DNA of 8,127 nt. It comes from a virus (Duplodnaviria; Heunggongvirae; Uroviricota; Caudoviricetes). Positions 1 to 8,127 of the stretch are shown one piece after another. The translations under genes and the position numbers were made by a program. The number at the start of each line of letters is the position of its first letter. Position 1 is the stretch's first letter. The notes below the pieces were generated by a model. It saw only the letters and a list, made by a program, of their open reading frames with translations, ran no database searches and was not told where the DNA came from. The stretch lies in IMG/VR virus record IMGVR_UViG_2713896799_000002, positions 1-8,127 of that record, one strand, 5' to 3'.

Positions 1-1779
1 GAACACTCCAGAACGCGTCTTTCCAGAACGTTTCGTCACAGCCCGGAGGTCAGTAAGCGTCTCAGTCCTTCCCGTAATGACAACAACGTCCACGATAAAA
101 TGTTTCTTGACGGCTCCTTCCTGAAGATTGGCTGGCCGTCGATCACCGTATTTTCCTCCTCGGATTACCGTCGTGTGGCGCTGACGGATTATGACCGTTT
201 CCCTGAAAACGTGGACGGGGAAGGGGATGCCTTCACCCTGGCATCAAAGCGTACCACCACCTTTATGTCTTCCGGGATGACCCTGGTCGAGAGTTCACCC
301 GGGCGGGATATCACTGACACCAAATGGCGATGTGGCGGCACACATGAGGCACCCCAACAACGGGATCCTGTCCCTGTATAACCGGGAGACCGCCGTCGGT
401 GGTACTGGCCGTGTCCGCACTGTGGGGAATATTTTCAGCCGGTGATGGATAACATGACCGGTTACCGGAATAACCCTGATTTTGTGGCTGCCGGGCAGGC
501 GCCCCGCCTGATGTGTCCGCACTGCTGCGGCCTGATTGCTCCGGAACAGAAACGTGAACTGAATAACCAGGGGATCTGGCTTCGTGAAGGTGAACGGGCG
601 GCGGCGGACGGCAGTATCACCGGAACGCCACGAAATTCCCGGATTGCGTCATTCTGGATGGAGGGGCCGGCTGCGGCGTTTCAGACCTGGGAACAACTGA
701 TTTTTAAACTGCTGGCGGCAGAAGAAGAGTATGAGCGAACCGGCAGTGAAGAGACCCTGAAAGCGGTGGTGAACACCGATATCGGACGACCCTATCTGCC
801 CCGTTCAGCCACGGAACAGCGTAAAAGTGAACTGCTTGAACAGCGTGCCGAGCCGTTTCCCCGGCGATCTGTGCCGGATGGTGTGCGTTTTATTGAGGCA
901 ACGGTTGACGTACAGGGCGGTAAAAATCGCCGTTTTGTTGTGCAGATCACCGGATACGGAGAGCAGGGGGAACGCTGGATTGTTGATCGCTACAACATCC
1001 GGCATTCACTGCGCTGCAGTCCCAACGGTGAAAGTCTGCCGGTTGATCCGGCGGCATATCCGGAGGACTGGGATTTGTTGCTGACGGATGTGTTCCATAA
1101 AACATGGCCGCTGGCTTCTGATCCGGATGTGCGCATGCGTCTGATGGCCATGGCGGTGGATACGGGAGGGGAAGCCGGGGTGACAGATAACGCCTATCGT
1201 TTCTGGCGTCGTTGCCGGAGTGACGGACTGGGCAACAGGGTGTTTCTGTTCAAGGGGGATGGTCTTCGCCGTGACAGGCTGATTAACCGTACCTTCCCGG
1301 ATAATACCGGCAGAAGTGCCCGCCGTGCCAGAGCCAGTGGCGATGTCGCGCTGTGGCTGGTTCAGACGGATGCGTTTAAGGACCGTGTAAATAATGCCCT
1401 GTGGCGTGACACACCGGGGCCGAACTATATCCACTTTCCCGACTGGCTGGGGCGGTGGTTTTACGATGAGCTGACCTATGAAGAGCGCGGCAGTGACGGA
1501 AAATGGCGAAAACCGGGCAGGGGCGCTAACGAGGCGTTTGACCTGCTGGTTTATGCGGATGCGCTTGCCGTTCTGCATGGTTACGAAAAGATCCGCTGGC
1601 CCTCCGCACCGGACTGGGCACAGCGGGAAACGTGGCTCGTCTTCCCGCAGGAGCGTTCTGGTGAAACGGCATCCCCGGAACTGACGGCCGGGGCAGAAAA
1701 ACGCCGTCGCCGGAAGAAAAAACTGCGGACGGAGCGTGCGGAAGATAATCCATGGATAACATCAGGAGGCTGGTTGTGA
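1..1779 (+). CDS. Terminase large subunit (lambda gpA / GpA family); 5' end lies upstream of the window; reading frame interrupted by an in-frame TAA at 379-381
   Basis: Frame +1 is open from base 1 to 378 and again from 382 to the TGA at 1777-1779. The CPHCGE and CPHCCG motifs just downstream of the stop resemble the cysteine motif region of lambda gpA, and the gene sits directly upstream of W and portal. ORF track gives 100..381 and 442..1779 in the same frame. Confidence 0.8.
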
Positions 1780-1988
1780 GCACAGAAGAAGCCAGAGAAA
1801 TGATACAGCGGTACCGTGAAGCGGAAATGGCCGTACTGGAGGGGAAGTCTGTCACCTTCAACGGACAGCAACTGACGCTGGAAAGCCTTTCTCAGATCCG
1901 CGCCGGACGTCAGGAGTGGGAACGCAGGCTTGCCGCGATGGTGAGCCGCAGGCGGGGAAAACCGGGATTTAAACTGGCGAGGTTTTAA
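1776..1988 (+). CDS. W: Head completion / head-tail joining protein, gpW family
   Basis: About 70 aa with the C-terminal RRRGxxGF motif typical of lambda gpW. AGGAGG at 1764-1769 lies 6 nt before GTG 1776, and the GTG overlaps the terminase stop (GTGA). The track ORF starts at the in-frame ATG 1752, which is a less likely start. The stop TAA overlaps the portal ATG (TAATG). Confidence 0.8.
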   Translation: MSTEEAREMIQRYREAEMAVLEGKSVTFNGQQLTLESLSQIRAGRQEWERRLAAMVSRRRGKPGFKLARF

Positions 1989-3490
1989 TGGCAATTATTG
2001 ATGATGTGATAGGCGTGTTCTCTCCAGGCTGGAAAGCGGCCAGACTGCGTTCAAGGGCGTTAATCATGGCCTATGAGGCGGTGAAACCGACCCGGACACA
2101 TAAAGCCCGGCGTGAAAATCGATCTGCTGATCAACTCAGTAAATATGGTGCGGTTTCCCTGCGGGAGCAGGCCCGTTTTCTGGATATCAATCATGACCTG
2201 GTGATTGGTGTGTTTGACAAGCTTGAAGAGCGGGTGATTGGTGCCAGAGGAATTACTGTGGAGCCTCAGCCATTACGAAAAAACGGGGAAATGGCGGCAG
2301 AGCTGGCTGCGGATATCCGCCGGTTGTGGGCTGAATGGTCCGTGAGTCCGGATGTGACAGGGCAGTATACCCGTCCCGTGCTTGAGCGTTTACTGCTGCG
2401 GACCTGGCTGCGGGATGGTGAAGTGTTTGCGCAGATGGTCAGTGGTGCGGGAAACGGTCTGGAACGGACGGCGGGAGTGCCATTCTGGCTTGAAGCGATG
2501 GAGCCGGATTTTGTTCCCATGCACAGTGATGAATCCGCCGGGCTGAATCAGGGGGTTTTTCTTGATGAGTGGGGCAGACCGAAAAAATATCTGGTTTATA
2601 AAAATTATCCGGTCAGTGGTCGGCAGAGTGATACGAAAGAAATCGCCGCCGGAAAAATGATCCACCTGAAGTTCACTCGTCGTCTGCATCAGACGCGAGG
2701 CTCATCCATGTTATCGGGGGTGCTGATGCGGATCAGTGCCCTTAAGGAGTATGAGGATGCGGAACTGACAGCGGCGCGTATTGCTGCGGCGCTGGGACTG
2801 TATATCCGTAAAGGTGACGGACAGGACTATGAAGATCCGGGGATCAAAGAAACCGAGCGGGAAGTCCATATCACCCCGGGGATTATTTATGACGATTTGC
2901 GCAAGGGCGAGGATATCGGCATGGTCAAATCCGATCGTCCCAATCCCAACCTTGAAACTTTCCGCAACGGCCAGTTGCGTGCAGTGGCAGCTGGCAGTCG
3001 TCTGAGTTTTTCCAGTGCGGCGCGTAACTATAACGGCACCTACAGCGCCCAGCGGCAGGAGCTGGTCGAGTCCACGGATGGTTACCTGATCCTGCAGGAC
3101 TGTTTTATTGGTGCGGTAACCCGCCCGGTGTACCGGACATGGCTGAATATGGTGGTTGCGGCAGGTCTGCTGAAAATTCCGGCGGATGTGGAGATGAAGA
3201 CGCTATATAACGCGACGTATTCCGGTCCGGTGATGCCGTGGATCGACCCGGTTAAGGAGGCTGAAGCCTGGCGGATACAGATCCGGGGTGGTGCCGCGAC
3301 GGAATCCGACTGGATCCGCGCAGGCGGGCGCAACCCGGATGAGGTCAAACGTCGCCGTAAGGCTGAAACTGAGGAAAATCGCAGGCTGGGGCTGGTCTTT
3401 GATACTGACCCCGCTAACGACAAAGGAGGCAACAGTGCCGGAACTGAACAACAGCGTCAGCAGGCCACCGACAGCCAGCATGAAGAATAA
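1988..3490 (+). CDS. Phage portal protein
   Basis: Uninterrupted 500-aa ORF with the size and position expected for a portal (after terminase and W, before the protease) and an acidic C-terminal tail. Start is coupled to the W stop. Confidence 0.85.
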   Translation: MAIIDDVIGVFSPGWKAARLRSRALIMAYEAVKPTRTHKARRENRSADQLSKYGAVSLREQARFLDINHDLVIGVFDKLEERVIGARGITVEPQPLRKNGEMAAELAADIRRLWAEWSVSPDVTGQYTRPVLERLLLRTWLRDGEVFAQMVSGAGNGLERTAGVPFWLEAMEPDFVPMHSDESAGLNQGVFLDEWGRPKKYLVYKNYPVSGRQSDTKEIAAGKMIHLKFTRRLHQTRGSSMLSGVLMRISALKEYEDAELTAARIAAALGLYIRKGDGQDYEDPGIKETEREVHITPGIIYDDLRKGEDIGMVKSDRPNPNLETFRNGQLRAVAAGSRLSFSSAARNYNGTYSAQRQELVESTDGYLILQDCFIGAVTRPVYRTWLNMVVAAGLLKIPADVEMKTLYNATYSGPVMPWIDPVKEAEAWRIQIRGGAATESDWIRAGGRNPDEVKRRRKAETEENRRLGLVFDTDPANDKGGNSAGTEQQRQQATDSQHEE

Positions 3491-4499
3491 ATCCTGGTTC
3501 AGGATGCAGGCGGGTGGTCAGGGTGAGGCGGATATTTATATTTATGATGAGATTGGTTTCTGGGGCGTCACCGCGAAGCAGTTTGTCAGCGATATGAATG
3601 CCCTGGGTGATATCACCCACATTAATCTCCACATCAACTCACCGGGTGGCGATGTCTTTGAAGGCATCGCCATTTTTAATGCCCTGAAAAATCACGGTGC
3701 GGCCATTACCGTGTATGTGGATGGCGTTGCCGCCTCGATGGCATCCCTGATTGCGATGGCCGGTGACACGGTCATTATGCCGGAAAATGCCTTCATGATG
3801 ATCCATAAACCCTGGGGGATCAGCGGTGGTGATGCGGAGAAAATGCGCACTTATGCCGAACGTCTGGACAAACTTGAGTCGGTTATGGTGCCGGTATATG
3901 CGCAGAAAACCGGAAAAACCACCGATGAAATTGCCGCCATGCTGGCGGATGAGACCTGGATGTCCGGTGCCGAGTGTCTGGCACACGGATTTGCTGACCA
4001 GGTGACGCCAGCCGTTAAGGCAATGGCATGTATTCAGTCAAAACGTACAGAGGAATTTAAAAAGATGCCGGAATCCATCCGAAATATGATCACGCAGCCA
4101 CACAACAGTGCCCCGCGTGATACCACAGTGACAATCCCTGCACCGGCGGTAACAGAACCATCACCGGTACCGGCAGTGTCTGATGAGGCGACCATTCGCG
4201 CCCGCGTTATGGCTGAGCAGAAAGCCCGCATGTCAGGCATTAACGATCTGTTTGCCATGTTTGGCGGGCGCTATCAGGCGCTTCAGGCGCAGTGTGTGGC
4301 CGATCCTGACTGTTCGCTGGAAATGGCCCGCGAGCGCCTTCTGAATGAAATGGGCAAGGAGTCCTCGCCGACCAACAAAAACACACCGGCCCATATTTAT
4401 GCCGGAAACGGCAATTTTGTGGGAGACGGATCCGCCAGGCGATGCTGGCCCGTGCCGGATTTGAAAATGTCGAGAAGGATAATGTCTATAACGGGATGA
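3435..4499 (+). CDS. ClpP-like (S14) prohead protease with C-terminal scaffold-like region; probably the 5' part of a tripartite protease-scaffold-capsid gene split by a frameshift near 4428
   Basis: The N-terminal part (ADIYIYDEIGF...INSPGGDV...MASLIAMAGD) looks like a ClpP-family serine protease, followed by a Pro/Ala-rich then helical-looking region. AAGGAGG at 3424-3430 precedes GTG 3435; alternative starts are ATG 3480 (overlapping the portal stop) and the track's ATG 3288. The last ~20 aa before the stop at 4499 look like out-of-frame translation. Confidence 0.75.
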   Translation: MPELNNSVSRPPTASMKNKSWFRMQAGGQGEADIYIYDEIGFWGVTAKQFVSDMNALGDITHINLHINSPGGDVFEGIAIFNALKNHGAAITVYVDGVAASMASLIAMAGDTVIMPENAFMMIHKPWGISGGDAEKMRTYAERLDKLESVMVPVYAQKTGKTTDEIAAMLADETWMSGAECLAHGFADQVTPAVKAMACIQSKRTEEFKKMPESIRNMITQPHNSAPRDTTVTIPAPAVTEPSPVPAVSDEATIRARVMAEQKARMSGINDLFAMFGGRYQALQAQCVADPDCSLEMARERLLNEMGKESSPTNKNTPAHIYAGNGNFVGDGSARRCWPVPDLKMSRRIMSITG

Positions 4500-5458
4500 C
4501 CCTGCGTGAATGGGCTCGCATGTCACTGACCGAGCGTGGTATTGGGGTGGCCAGTTATAACCCCATGCAGATGGTCGGGCTGGCGCTGACGCACAGCACC
4601 TCTGATTTTGGCAATATTCTGCTGGATGTGTCGAACAAGGGGCTGATCCAGGGCTGGGAGGAATCAGAAGAAACCTTCCAGAAGTGGACCCGTAAGGGAC
4701 GCCTGTCAGACTTCAAAACAGCGTATCGCGTGGGGATGGGCGGTTTTGGTTCTCTGCGTCAGGTTCGTGAAGGGGCGGAGTATAAATACATCACCACCTC
4801 AGATCGCAAGGAGACCATTGCTCTGGCCACTTACGGGGAGATTTTCTCCATCACCCGCCAGGCCATTATCAATGATGACCTGAATATGCTGGTTGACGTG
4901 CCGATGAAGATGGGGCGTGCGGCGAAGGCAACGATTGGTGACCTGGTCTACAAGGTGCTGACGGATAACCCGAAACTGTCAGACGGTAAGGCGCTGTTCC
5001 ATGCCGATCACAAAAATATTGCCACCGGCGGGATCTCCGTTTCCGGACTGGATGCGGCCCGTCAGATGATGCGCCTGCAGAAAGAAGGCGATCGCGCCCT
5101 GAATATCCGCCCGGCCTTCATGCTGGTCCCTGTGGCACTGGAGACGGTGGCGAACCAGACCATCAAATCGGCCAGTGTGAAAGGGGCGGATGCAAACGCC
5201 GGTGTCATTAACCCTATCCAGAACTTTGCTGAGGTGATTGCGGAAGCGCGTCTTGATGCGGCAGATCCGAAAACCTGGTATCTTGCGGCGGCACAGGGCA
5301 CCGACACCATTGAAGTGGCCTGGCTCGATGGTGTGGACACGCCATACATTGATCAGCAGGAAGGTTTCACCACTGACGGCATTGCCACAAAAATCCGTAT
5401 TGATGCCGGAGTGGCACCACTTGACTGGCGCGGGCTGGTGCGTTCGTCGGTGGCCTGA
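4442..5458 (+). CDS. Major capsid protein segment; likely the 3' part of the protease-scaffold-capsid gene
   Basis: 338-aa ORF ending in a tandem stop TGATAA at 5456-5461 and followed by a terminator. Its frame stays open upstream of ATG 4442 back into the end of the protease ORF (reads ...GRRIRQAMLARAGFENVEK), and ATG 4442 has no good RBS. Confidence 0.75.
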   Translation: MLARAGFENVEKDNVYNGMTLREWARMSLTERGIGVASYNPMQMVGLALTHSTSDFGNILLDVSNKGLIQGWEESEETFQKWTRKGRLSDFKTAYRVGMGGFGSLRQVREGAEYKYITTSDRKETIALATYGEIFSITRQAIINDDLNMLVDVPMKMGRAAKATIGDLVYKVLTDNPKLSDGKALFHADHKNIATGGISVSGLDAARQMMRLQKEGDRALNIRPAFMLVPVALETVANQTIKSASVKGADANAGVINPIQNFAEVIAEARLDAADPKTWYLAAAQGTDTIEVAWLDGVDTPYIDQQEGFTTDGIATKIRIDAGVAPLDWRGLVRSSVA

Positions 5459-5480
5459 TAACCGCGTTATCACAATCACT

Positions 5481-5499
5481 GCCCGAAAGGGCTTTTTTT
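5481..5499 (+). terminator. Putative Rho-independent terminator or attenuator after the capsid gene
   Basis: GCCC-GAAA-GGGC hairpin (4-bp GC stem, GNRA-type loop) followed directly by a run of seven T, 23 nt after the capsid stop. Confidence 0.5.
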
Positions 5500-5510
5500 A
5501 TGCCTGAAAA

Positions 5511-5528
5511 ACAGCCCCCGGGGGCTGT
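5511..5528 (+). repeat. Perfect 18-bp palindrome ACAGCCCCCGGGGGCTGT between the terminator and the next gene's RBS
   Basis: Read directly from the sequence. It contains a CCCGGG core and sits about 3 nt upstream of GGAGAG (5531-5536) and ATG 5545. Confidence 0.45.
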
Positions 5529-5544
5529 CCGGAGAGACAGCATT

Positions 5545-5870
5545 ATGGCGAAAAATTTTGTACAGGACGGTACCACCATTGAACTGGTGAATGCCGGAGA
5601 TCAGACCATTCTGAGCGGTGCCGCGGTGGTGGTCGGCAGTATGGTGGCAGTGGCCATTACCGATATTCCTGCCGGGGATGTCGGTGACGGTTTTGCCGAA
5701 GGCGTGTTCCTGCTGCCCAAACAGTCTGCTGACGATATTCAGGCCGGTGCGGTGGTTTATCTGAAGGACGGGGCTGTGCAGCTGCTGCAGACGGTGCGGT
5801 GGCAGCGGGAGTAGCCTGGGAAAATGCTCCAGCAAACACCGCCACTGTGGCGGTAAAAATCAATGTCTGA
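5545..5870 (+). CDS. DUF2190-like small head-associated protein (putative decoration/cement-type), frameshifted near 5770-5790
   Basis: Begins MAKNFVQDGTTIELVNAG, with GGAGAG 8 nt upstream of ATG 5545. The frame +1 part stops at TAG 5812-5814, but the -1 frame from about 5775 to TGA 5868-5870 reads AAAADGAVAAGVAWENAPANTATVAVKINV, a plausible C-terminus. The track's ATG 5500 abuts the terminator T-run and lacks an RBS. Confidence 0.55.
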
Positions 5871-6144
5871 TCTGTTTGCGCGAATGTGTTGCCGGATGGA
5901 CGTGGCGACCGTTCGGATGATGGGCAAACAGGCGGAGATTAACGGCGTCGTGTATGACGTGATGCCGGAGGAAGAGTCTGCGGATATGGGGGCGCTTTCC
6001 GGCAGTCAGTTGTCACTGGTGGTGTTTTCAGCGCAGTACCGGCCGGCCCGCGATGATGTGGTTGTGTTTGACGGTCGCTCACTGGTGGTGACCCGTTATG
6101 ACACGTACAACGGTAAACCCCGGATTTTTGTCGAGCAGGAATAA
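5863..6144 (+). CDS. Head-tail attachment protein, lambda gpFII-like
   Basis: Intact 93-aa ORF. Its N-terminal half (LFARMCCRMDVATVRMMGKQAEI) parallels lambda FII as I recall it (LFDAAIARADETIRGYMGTSATI), and it sits immediately before Z. ATG overlaps the upstream stop (ATGTCTGA). Confidence 0.55.
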   Translation: MSDLFARMCCRMDVATVRMMGKQAEINGVVYDVMPEEESADMGALSGSQLSLVVFSAQYRPARDDVVVFDGRSLVVTRYDTYNGKPRIFVEQE

Positions 6145-6146
6145 GT

Positions 6147-6738
6147 ATGGCGATAAAAGGAATGGCTCAGGCCATGCGAAATCTTGATGCGCTGGATCGC
6201 CGTGCCGTTCCCGTGCGGCAGCCACCACGCTTAATCGTGTGGCGGAGTCCATCATCGCGAAAACGGCCTCTTCGGTTGCCCGTGAACTGGCGGTTCCACG
6301 CCGTCTCATCCGTGCCCGTATCCGCCTGCAACGGGCACGGGCCGACAAGGTCAACGCAAAGGTTTACATCACACCGGTAATCTGCCCGTCATAAACTGGG
6401 GAGGCCCGCGTGAGGCTTTCCCGCAGAAAGCGGCGAAAGAAAGGTGAGCGTTCGGTCACGAAAGGCGGTGGCAGTGTGCTGATTGTCGGGAAACGGCGGA
6501 TCCCGAATGCTTTTATTACCCGGCTGGAAAATGGCCGGTGGCATGTGATGCAGCGTATGCCGTGGGCATCGTCGTCCACCGGTGTTGACCGTAAAGGCAG
6601 GCCGAACCGTCTGCCGATTGAAGTGGTGACACCGACGACCGCTGGCGGAACCTTTGAGCGCGAACGTGACCGGATGTACCGGGAGAATTACCGGAACAGC
6701 CATGGCGTATCAGTTACGTTATGAAACGAAAACTGTGA
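6147..6738 (+). pseudogene. Z: Minor tail protein Z (lambda gpZ homologue), broken by at least four frameshifts
   Basis: Lambda Z-like sequence can be followed across three frames: MAIKGMAQAMRNLDALDRRAVP (frame 0), AAATTLNRVAESIIAKTASSVARELAVPRRLIRARIRLQRARADKVNAKVYITP (frame 2), GNLPVI (frame 1), EARVRLSRRKRRKKGERSVTKGGGSVLIVGKRRIPNAFITRLENGRWHVMQR... (frame 2), ...LPEQPWRISYVMKRKL (frame 1, stop TGA 6736-6738). Track ORFs 6147..6380 and 6410..6724 are fragments of it. Confidence 0.8.
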
Positions 6739-7133
6739 GGAGGTTGAAACACCGGGAAATACGGGCGGCCGTTCTGTCAGCCCTGAAGAAAATATTTTGA
6801 GCGGGGGACATGGTTTGACGGGCGACCTGCTTTTATTGACGAGCTGGAACTTCCGGCAGTGGCGGTCTACCTGACGGATGCGTCGGCAGCTGACGAGTTC
6901 GTTGATGAGGACCTGGGGGGTACTGCATATCGAGGTTTTCTCAGGCGAAAGAAACGGATTCGGCACTGGATATGTGGATGGAAGAGAAAATCCTTCCTGC
7001 GCTGGAGGCGGTTCCCGGCCTCAGTGCGTTACTGCTGAAGATGAATCTTCAGGGGTATGACTACCGCCGGGATGATGAGTTTATGATGTGGGGATCGGCA
7101 GATCTCCTGTGGAAAATTACCTACGAGATGTGA
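6735..7133 (+). pseudogene. U: Tail terminator protein U (lambda gpU homologue), broken by at least three frameshifts
   Basis: GTG 6735 overlaps the Z stop (GTGA). Lambda U-like segments: RRLKHREIRAAVLSALKKIF (frame 0, stop 6798-6800), WFDGRPAFIDELELPAVAVYLTDASAADEFVDEDLGG (frame 1), VLHIEVF (frame 2), then ...[55 protein letters not shown] ending at TGA 7131-7133 (frame 0). Track ORF 6878..7060 is a fragment. Confidence 0.75.
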
Positions 7134-7140
7134 GGACGAT

Positions 7141-7889
7141 ATGGCAATACCAAATCCTCTTGAGCCGGTGAAAGGTTCCGGCACCACACTATGGGTGTAC
7201 ACCGGCACTGGTGATGCTTATGCCAACCCGTTGTCAGACGATGAGTGGACGCGCCTGGCAAAAATAAAGGATCTGACCCCCGGCGAGATGACGGCAGAAT
7301 CCTACGATGATAACTATCTGGATGATGAGGATGCTGACTGGGTATCCACCGGGCAGGGGCAGAAATCTGCCGGTGACACCAGTTTTACGCTGGCCTGGAA
7401 GCCGGGCGAGAAAGGGCAGCGCGATTTGATCGCCTGGTTTGACAGCAGTGAGACCCGGGCCTACAAAATCCGTTTCCCGAACGGCACGGTGGATGTGTTC
7501 CGTGGCTGGGTGAGCGCCATTGGTAAAGCGGTGACCGCCAGAGAGGTGATCACCCGTACCGTGAAGATCACCAATATCGGCCGTCCGTCGCTGGCGGAAG
7601 ATCAGGGGACATCACGCCGGTCACCGGTATTACCGTGACGCCATCAACGGGCAATGTGGCAAAAGGTCAGAATATCACCCTGACTGTGGCCGTTCAGCCG
7701 GAAGGGGCGACGGATAAAACCTTCCGCGCCACGTCAGCGAATCAGAATTTCGCCACCATTACCGTGAAAGGGAACACGATCACGGTGAAAGGTGTTGCGG
7801 CCGGTAAAGCGCAGATCCCTGTGGTGACCGGAAATGGTCAGTTTGCGGCAGTGGCAGAAATTACCGTCACGGATGGTGCTGCGGGTTAA
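7141..7889 (+). CDS. V: Major tail tube protein V (lambda gpV homologue), with a frameshift at the GGGG run 7605-7608 separating the C-terminal Ig-like domain
   Basis: Residues 1-160 are highly similar to lambda V as recalled (PNPxxPVKGxGTTLWVY...[18 protein letters not shown]). GAGG sits 5 nt before ATG 7141. Track ORF 7635..7889 (...[10 protein letters not shown]...[23 protein letters not shown]) corresponds to the lambda V C-terminal Ig-like domain in the -1 frame. Confidence 0.85.
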
Positions 7890-7909
7890 GCTGAGGGAGT
7901 GATAAAAGC

Positions 7910-8127
7910 ATGTTTCTGAAAACAGAACAATTTGAATATAACGGCGTGTCCGTCACCCTTTCCGAACTGTCTGCGCTGCAGCGTATTGAGCATCTTGCCC
8001 CTCCTGAAACGGCGGGCAGAAGAGGCTGAAGCCAGCGGCAACCTGCAGGTGAGCGTGGAAGACCTTGTCAGAACCGGGGCGTTTCTGGTGGCGATGTCCC
8101 TGTGGCATAACCATCCACAGAAAACGC
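7910..8127 (+). CDS. G: Tail assembly chaperone G (lambda gpG homologue), 3' end beyond the window; frameshift at the CCCC run 7998-8001
   Basis: GAGGGAG at 7893-7899 precedes ATG 7910. MFLKTEQFEYNGVSVTLSELSALQRIEHLA (frame 2, stop 8027-8029) then LLKRRAEEAEASGNLQVSVEDLVRTGAFLVAMSLWHNHPQKT (frame 0, open to the window end) is near-collinear with lambda G as recalled. Confidence 0.75.

What the first reader, a model, noticed from the sequence alone, without database searches (positions are those of the whole stretch)
281..442. Terminase large subunit is interrupted just upstream of its cysteine motif region
Frame +1 carries an in-frame TAA at 379-381 between the upstream terminase segment and WYWPCPHCGEYF. 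Frame +2 is open across the stop (281-436, reading ...NNGILSLYNR), and one extra G in the GGG run 384-386 would join it to GDRRRWYWPCPHC. So the gene is either a nonsense mutant or carries two compensating indels (a second one somewhere in about 300-380). Either way an intact terminase is not encoded as written, which would block DNA packaging.
Basis: partly seen in the sequence, partly recalled or inferred. Interest (0 to 1): 0.45.

Follow-up and report, generated by a model that had tools for sequence, protein, structure and literature searches.

The report
Terminase gene broken by sequencing errors
The stop codon inside this prophage terminase gene comes from three missing single bases in short C and G runs on a small, apparently unpolished PacBio contig, so it is almost certainly a sequencing error and not a real broken gene.

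Summary
Frame +1 has TAA at 379-381, and frame +2 is open from 281 to 442. The cause is neither a nonsense mutation nor two compensating indels. The window lacks three single bases within 35 nt, each from a homopolymer: C5->C4 (352-355), G4->G3 (362-364) and G4->G3 (384-386). The true reading frame therefore runs +1 -> +3 -> +2 -> +1. Putting the three bases back restores the invariant HEAPPTTGILSLYNRGDRRRWYWPCPHCG core of the GpA ATPase domain, and 591 of 593 residues then match intact 707-aa homologues.

The window is the whole 8,127-bp contig LFZJ01000007.1 of E. coli IH57218. That genome was sequenced on PacBio RS (P4/C2) and assembled with HGAP pre-assembly and Celera Assembler; its paper describes no polishing. 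Against its nearest relatives the contig has 30 indels (28 of them deletions) and 37 substitutions. In the first 5.5 kb it has 4 private homopolymer deletions and 2 substitutions, while 11 independent copies of that stretch show no indels among themselves. The deleted version was not found in any other collection searched. Verdict: a long-read consensus artefact (about 0.88), not a real feature. The gene underneath is an ordinary lambdoid GpA-type large terminase.

The parts
1..1779 (+). Large terminase subunit gene (GpA type). Its 5' end is cut off by the start of the contig. As written it is split into 1-381 and 445-1779.
   Evidence: Pfam GpA_ATPase matches 1-378 and GpA_nuclease matches 445-1779. 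The stretch is 99.7% identical to the intact 707-aa gene of E. coli 08-00022. The source record calls genes at 1-381 and 445-1779.
352..355 (+). C run of 4 where all relatives have 5 (deletion 1). The true frame moves from +1 to +3.
   Evidence: Alignments. The gap is private to the window.
362..364 (+). G run of 3 where relatives have 4 (deletion 2). The true frame moves from +3 to +2.
379..381 (+). TAA in frame +1. It is an out-of-frame reading of the conserved TAT AAC (Tyr-Asn of GILSLYNR).
384..386 (+). G run of 3 where relatives have 4 (deletion 3). The true frame returns to +1.
388..441 (+). In-frame codons for DRRRWYWPCPHCGEYFQP, including the first CxxC of the cysteine motif. In the source record's annotation these fall between the two called genes.
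4426..4430 (+). A fourth private 1-nt deletion, in a G run before GGATCC, of the same kind as the other three. It splits the ClpP-protease/major-capsid fusion gene.
   Evidence: Relatives carry an intact 659/674-aa gene.

Best explanation
The interruption is a consensus error in a long-read assembly, not a property of the phage DNA. The window is a complete 8.1-kb leftover contig of a PacBio RS (P4/C2) draft of E. coli IH57218. It was built from HGAP/PacBioToCA-corrected reads with Celera Assembler, and no consensus polishing is described. At a locally poorly supported spot the consensus under-called three G/C homopolymers by one base each. That moves the terminase reading frame +1 -> +3 -> +2 -> +1 and exposes an out-of-frame TAA. 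The real gene is inferred to be an ordinary uninterrupted 707-aa GpA-type large terminase: an N-terminal packaging ATPase plus a C-terminal cos endonuclease, in a lambdoid prophage. Shown here: the three deletions, that they are private to this contig, the contig-wide excess of deletions, and the sequencing method. Inferred: that the reads or the DNA carry the missing bases.
For: (1) All three lesions are 1-nt losses from G/C runs of 4-5 within 35 nt. Three of the four G/C runs of at least 3 in that stretch are shortened. The chance that 3 of 4 randomly hit runs fall within 40 nt is about 0.0005, which points to one locally bad patch.

(2) Against the nearest relative the contig has 30 indels (28 deletions, 57 nt lost; 2 insertions) and 37 substitutions. 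In 1-5500 there are 4 deletions and 2 substitutions.

(3) As a control, 11 independent copies of the same 5.5 kb have 26 variable columns and 0 indels. All 4 gaps are private to the window.

(4) Putting the three bases back gives a protein identical at 591 of 593 residues to intact homologues. It restores HEAPPTTGILSLYNRGDRRRWYWPCPHCG, which is invariant even in mEp460 and Fels-1 at about 73% nucleotide identity.

(5) The 444-aa truncated product occurs on exactly one contig among about 15 billion proteins, and that contig is this one, LFZJ01000007.1.

(6) The 54-nt deleted version has 0 hits in IMG/VR and 0 in the metagenome contigs. The intact version is found in IMG/VR.

(7) All 10 contigs that carry the identical portal protein have an intact 707-aa terminase.

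(8) The source paper (PMC4551483) describes PacBio RS P4/C2 sequencing, HGAP pre-assembly, PacBioToCA and Celera Assembler. The words Quiver, polish and resequencing never occur in it. It reports 17 prophage regions, so the late-gene region is probably repeated within the genome, and a misassembly was noted for this strain.

(9) Homopolymer deletions that fragment genes are the known main error of long-read assemblies (PMC12007338; PMC4853030).
Against: No reads or quality values could be inspected, so the absence of the deletions from the real DNA is inferred. Positions 1-351 and 387-4427 are clean, so the errors are not explained simply by closeness to the contig end. STEC genomes do carry many truly defective lambdoid prophages.
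Confidence: 0.88

Rival explanations
1. The gene is a real pseudogene. One of the many lambdoid prophages of IH57218 truly carries three -1 frameshift mutations in its terminase, plus the other indels on the contig, and cannot package DNA.
For: The sequence as deposited has the lesions. The paper reports 5 of 17 prophage regions as incomplete. Homopolymer slippage is also a real mutational mechanism (general knowledge).
Against: There are 2 substitutions and 4 deletions in 5.5 kb, while 11 relatives show 26 variable sites and no indel. Decay that produced 30 indels should have left many more substitutions. Deletions outnumber insertions 28 to 2, and 6600-6950 holds a burst of about 20 deletions. 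These fit read error, not evolution. The portal protein is still 100% identical to that of many strains. The lesion is not found in any other collection searched.
Confidence: 0.08
2. The terminase is genuinely split. An ATPase fragment ending at 378 and a separately translated nuclease protein starting at 442/445 act together.
For: The source annotation calls two genes, and Pfam puts the ATPase on the first and the nuclease on the second.
Against: The break lies inside the GpA_ATPase domain: the first fragment matches only profile positions 71-178 of 247, whereas the domain reaches residue 308 of the intact protein. The invariant PTTGILSLYNRG would be lost, and GDRRRWYWPCPHCGEYFQP would be left untranslated. 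No homologue is split at this point: all copies inspected in detail and all 40 listed top hits align without a break or carry a single-gene annotation; the other ~650 records were not inspected.
Confidence: 0.01
3. Translational recoding: ribosomes shift frame three times, or read through the TAA, to make full-length terminase.
For: None beyond the fact that frames +3 and +2 carry the right residues over short stretches.
Against: It would take three successive -1 shifts within 35 nt with no X XXY YYZ slippery heptamer in register (sequence read directly). Homologues simply have one more base at each site, so no frameshift is conserved.
Confidence: 0.01

Closest known systems
Large terminase subunit of lambdoid and Stx-converting prophages of E. 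coli (e.g. WP_040091147.1 of strain 08-00022; BCI49012.1 of phage Stx2_14040; CP-1639; VT1-Sakai)
   Same: It is 97-99.7% identical in DNA over 1-1779. It has the same neighbours, a W-like gene, portal and ClpP-protease/capsid fusion downstream, and a DUF1441 small terminase upstream in the relatives. After repair, 591 of 593 residues are identical.
   Different: The window lacks three single bases (352-355, 362-364, 384-386) and has two private substitutions, A->P from base 502 and S->P from base 1021.
Phage lambda gpA family (Pfam PF05876 GpA_ATPase + PF20454 GpA_nuclease)
   Same: Both domains are detected, with E-values of 1e-81 to 1e-84 in the intact relative and in the window fragments.
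   Different: As written, the ATPase domain is cut at profile position about 178 of 247. The Walker A region lies upstream of the contig start.
Gene-fragmenting homopolymer indels in long-read (PacBio/nanopore) assemblies
   Same: The lesions are single-base deletions in runs of 3-5, mostly deletions, private to one assembly, and they create false pseudogenes.
   Different: Three errors within 35 nt is an unusually dense cluster for a stretch that is otherwise clean for 350 nt upstream and 4 kb downstream.

Membership tests
GpA-type terminase large subunit | N-terminal GpA_ATPase domain (PF05876) | tested here: met
   Window 1-378 scores 111 bits (cut-off 25.6) over profile positions 71-178. 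The intact relative covers 2-247.
GpA-type terminase large subunit | C-terminal GpA_nuclease domain (PF20454) | tested here: met
   Window 445-1779 scores 284 bits over the full profile 1-294.
GpA-type terminase large subunit | One uninterrupted reading frame joining both domains | tested here: not met
   TAA at 379-381 in frame +1. The feature is met once the three bases present in all relatives are restored.
GpA-type terminase large subunit | Lambda-like late-gene neighbourhood (small terminase, W-like gene, portal) | tested here: met
   The window has a W-like ORF at 1776-1988 and the portal at 1988-3490. Relatives have the DUF1441 small subunit directly upstream.
Long-read assembly indel artefact | The lesion is private to one assembly while close relatives are intact | tested here: met
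Long-read assembly indel artefact | Single-base homopolymer indels, a bias to deletions, and more indels than substitutions | tested here: met
   28 deletions against 2 insertions. In 1-5500 there are 4 deletions and 2 substitutions, and all four deletions lie in G/C runs of at least 3.
Long-read assembly indel artefact | Error-prone platform and no consensus polishing | tested here: met
   PMC4551483 describes PacBio RS P4/C2, HGAP pre-assembly, PacBioToCA and Celera Assembler 7.0. It does not mention Quiver or polishing.
Long-read assembly indel artefact | Reads or independent sequencing show the missing bases | not testable with these tools
   The reads (PRJNA269579) cannot be reached here.
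Programmed ribosomal frameshift | Slippery site in register, and the frameshift conserved in homologues | tested here: not met
   There is no X XXY YYZ heptamer at the three sites. Homologues are in one frame.

The most novel reading that the evidence does not exclude
The three deletions are real and arose together, as one clustered mutational event: for example a short patch of error-prone synthesis that makes -1 slips in G/C runs. That event would have inactivated the terminase of one of the 17 prophages of IH57218 very recently, before substitutions could build up.
Probability: 0.06. Interest if true: 0.2.

Novelty: not a real feature. Interest (0 to 1): 0.04.

Why it matters
It matters only for data quality. 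This contig, and probably the whole LFZJ assembly, should not be used to call prophage genes defective or to count pseudogenes. The deposited 126-aa and 444-aa 'terminase' products (the latter KOA27461.1) are artefactual fragments of one ordinary 707-aa protein. Nothing new about terminases or phage biology follows from it.

Tried and rejected
A nonsense substitution is rejected: the TAA is the TAT AAC of the homologues read out of frame.

Two compensating indels are rejected: the alignment shows three deletions.

A split terminase and programmed frameshifting are rejected by the homologues.

I looked for an independent copy with the same lesion by exact-pattern scans of IMG/VR and the metagenome contigs, and by an exact protein look-up. 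Only the source contig turned up.

A 101-nt megablast against the complete E. coli genomes returned only two records, both intact. It says little about the other genomes, because SNPs break the 28-mer seeds.

I checked whether the deletions track GATC/GGATCC sites. Two of the four sit just 5' of GGATCC, but GGGATC occurs 7 times and GATC 47 times in the window, so there is no convincing link.

I looked for a second IH57218 contig carrying the same region, through the portal protein and the 93-aa Gifsy-2-family protein. None surfaced, so I could not test whether this contig duplicates part of a larger one.

Full report
**Observation.** The window begins inside a large terminase gene. Frame +1 reads ...SSPGRDITDTKWRCGGTHEAPQQRDPVPV* with TAA at 379-381, then continues PGDRRRWYWPCPHCGEYF... 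to a stop at 1777-1779. Frame +2 has no stop from 281 to 442 and contains NNGILSLYNR.

**What the lesion is.** Over 1-1779 the window is 99.7% identical to the terminase gene of E. coli 08-00022 and 97-98% identical to those of Stx-converting phages, CP-1639 and VT1-Sakai. In all of the listed full-length hits the 1,779 nt align to 1,782 nt.
- A three-way alignment shows three single-base gaps in the window. One C is missing from a C5 run (window 352-355), one G from a G4 run (362-364) and one G from a G4 run (384-386). Global alignments to two different references confirm this.
- The reference reads ACA CAT GAG GCA CCC CCA ACA ACG GGG ATC CTG TCC CTG TAT AAC CGG GGA GAC, which is THEAPPTTGILSLYNRGD.
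- In the window the correct frame is therefore +1 up to the C run, +3 for ACA ACG GG (357-364), +2 for ATC...CGG (365-385), and +1 again from 388.
- The TAA is TAT AAC read out of frame. It lies before the third deletion, so the net -3 does not rescue translation.
- Restoring the three bases gives a protein identical at 591 of 593 positions to the intact 707-aa homologue. It also recreates HEAPPTTGILSLYNRGDRRRWYWPCPHCG, which is invariant even in mEp460 and Fels-1, whose genes are only about 73% identical in DNA.
- Pfam places the break inside the GpA_ATPase domain. The first fragment stops matching at profile position 178 of 247, whereas in the intact protein the domain runs to residue 308. 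The GpA_nuclease domain follows.

**Where the sequence comes from.** The 444-aa product of 445-1779 exists in the 15-billion-protein collection as KOA27461.1. It is seen on a single contig whose length is 8,127 bp. That contig is LFZJ01000007.1 of GCA_001264215.1 and is identical in extent to the window.
- The accession belongs to E. coli IH57218, a STEC/ETEC hybrid strain (PMC4551483).
- It was sequenced on a PacBio RS with P4/C2 chemistry. Reads were pre-assembled with HGAP, corrected again with PacBioToCA and assembled with Celera Assembler 7.0 into 17 contigs.
- The paper never mentions Quiver, polishing or resequencing. It notes a misassembly in this strain and reports 17 prophage regions.
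- The submitted annotation calls only five genes on the contig. The rest could not be called as intact genes.

**Is the lesion biological?** Several independent lines say no.
1. Against the nearest relatives, which are contigs carrying the identical 500-aa portal protein, the contig has 30 indels and 37 substitutions. Of the indels, 28 are deletions that remove 57 nt and 2 are insertions. In 1-5500 there are 4 deletions (352, 362, 384, 4428), all of one base and all in G/C runs of at least 3, against only 2 substitutions.
2. Eleven independent copies of that 5.5-kb stretch differ among themselves at 26 columns and have no indel at all. All four gaps are private to the window.
3. All ten contigs with the identical portal protein encode an intact 707-aa terminase and an intact 659/674-aa protease-capsid fusion.
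4. The exact 54-nt deleted version has no match in IMG/VR or in the metagenome contigs. The intact 57-nt version is found in four IMG/VR contigs.
5. Three of the four G/C runs between 350 and 390 are shortened. Such clustering has a probability of about 0.0005 if the errors hit runs at random, which points to one locally bad patch of consensus. A much worse patch, with about 20 deletions of 1-10 nt, lies at 6600-6950.
6. Homopolymer deletions that create false frameshifts are the characteristic residual error of long-read assemblies. PacBio users are advised to treat such frameshifts with suspicion (PMC12007338; PMC4853030).

**Rivals.**
- A real pseudogene cannot be excluded without reads. 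It would require many indels to have accumulated with almost no substitutions and with a 14:1 deletion bias, in a prophage whose portal is still identical to that of many strains. I give it about 0.08.
- A genuinely split terminase is contradicted by the homologues. The break also lies inside a domain and leaves 19 conserved codons untranslated.
- Programmed frameshifting would need three -1 shifts in 35 nt without slippery sites, and it is not conserved in the homologues.

**Comparison with the known.** The gene underneath is an ordinary member of the lambda gpA family of large terminases, which combine a packaging ATPase with a cos endonuclease. It sits in the usual lambdoid late operon: W-like gene, portal, ClpP-protease/capsid fusion, head-tail and tail genes. 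The 'interruption' belongs to the well-known class of gene-fragmenting indel errors in long-read assemblies that have not been consensus-polished.

**Verdict.** This is not a real feature, and interest is very low. The decisive test is to map the SRA reads (PRJNA269579), or to Sanger-sequence 250-500 from the strain.

Noticed in passing
window 4428 (gene 3480-5458): A private 1-nt deletion in a G run just before GGATCC splits the ClpP-protease/major-capsid fusion gene into ORFs 3288-4499 and 4442-5458. Relatives have one 659/674-aa gene.
   Followed up: partly
window 6600-6950: A dense burst of about 20 deletions of 1-10 nt, seen against two different references. It destroys the Z-like and U-like tail genes and looks like a very low-quality stretch of consensus.
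   Followed up: partly
window 5519, 5784, 6210, 6371, 6393, 6398, 7605, 7998: More single-base indels, mostly homopolymer deletions, in the intergenic hairpin after the capsid gene, the decoration gene and the tail genes. The source record calls no genes in 3490-5863 or 6144-8127.
   Followed up: partly
window 502 and 1021: Two private substitutions in the terminase gene, G>C and T>C, both creating proline (A->P, S->P). They may also be consensus errors.
   Followed up: no
window 5863-6144: The 93-aa Gifsy-2-family head-tail protein is unique to this contig in the 15-billion-protein collection. The 5500-6650 region differs by about 3% from the best relatives, so it is either a rarer mosaic module or carries more errors.
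   Followed up: partly
window 362-368 and 4428-4433: Two of the four deletions in the clean 5.5 kb sit directly 5' of GGATCC (which contains a GATC Dam site). GGGATC occurs 7 times and GATC 47 times in the window, so this is probably coincidence.
   Followed up: yes
window 1752-1988: The source record calls a 78-aa gene from the ATG at 1752, which overlaps the end of the terminase gene. RefSeq relatives start the same gene at the GTG equivalent to 1776, giving 70 aa.
   Followed up: no
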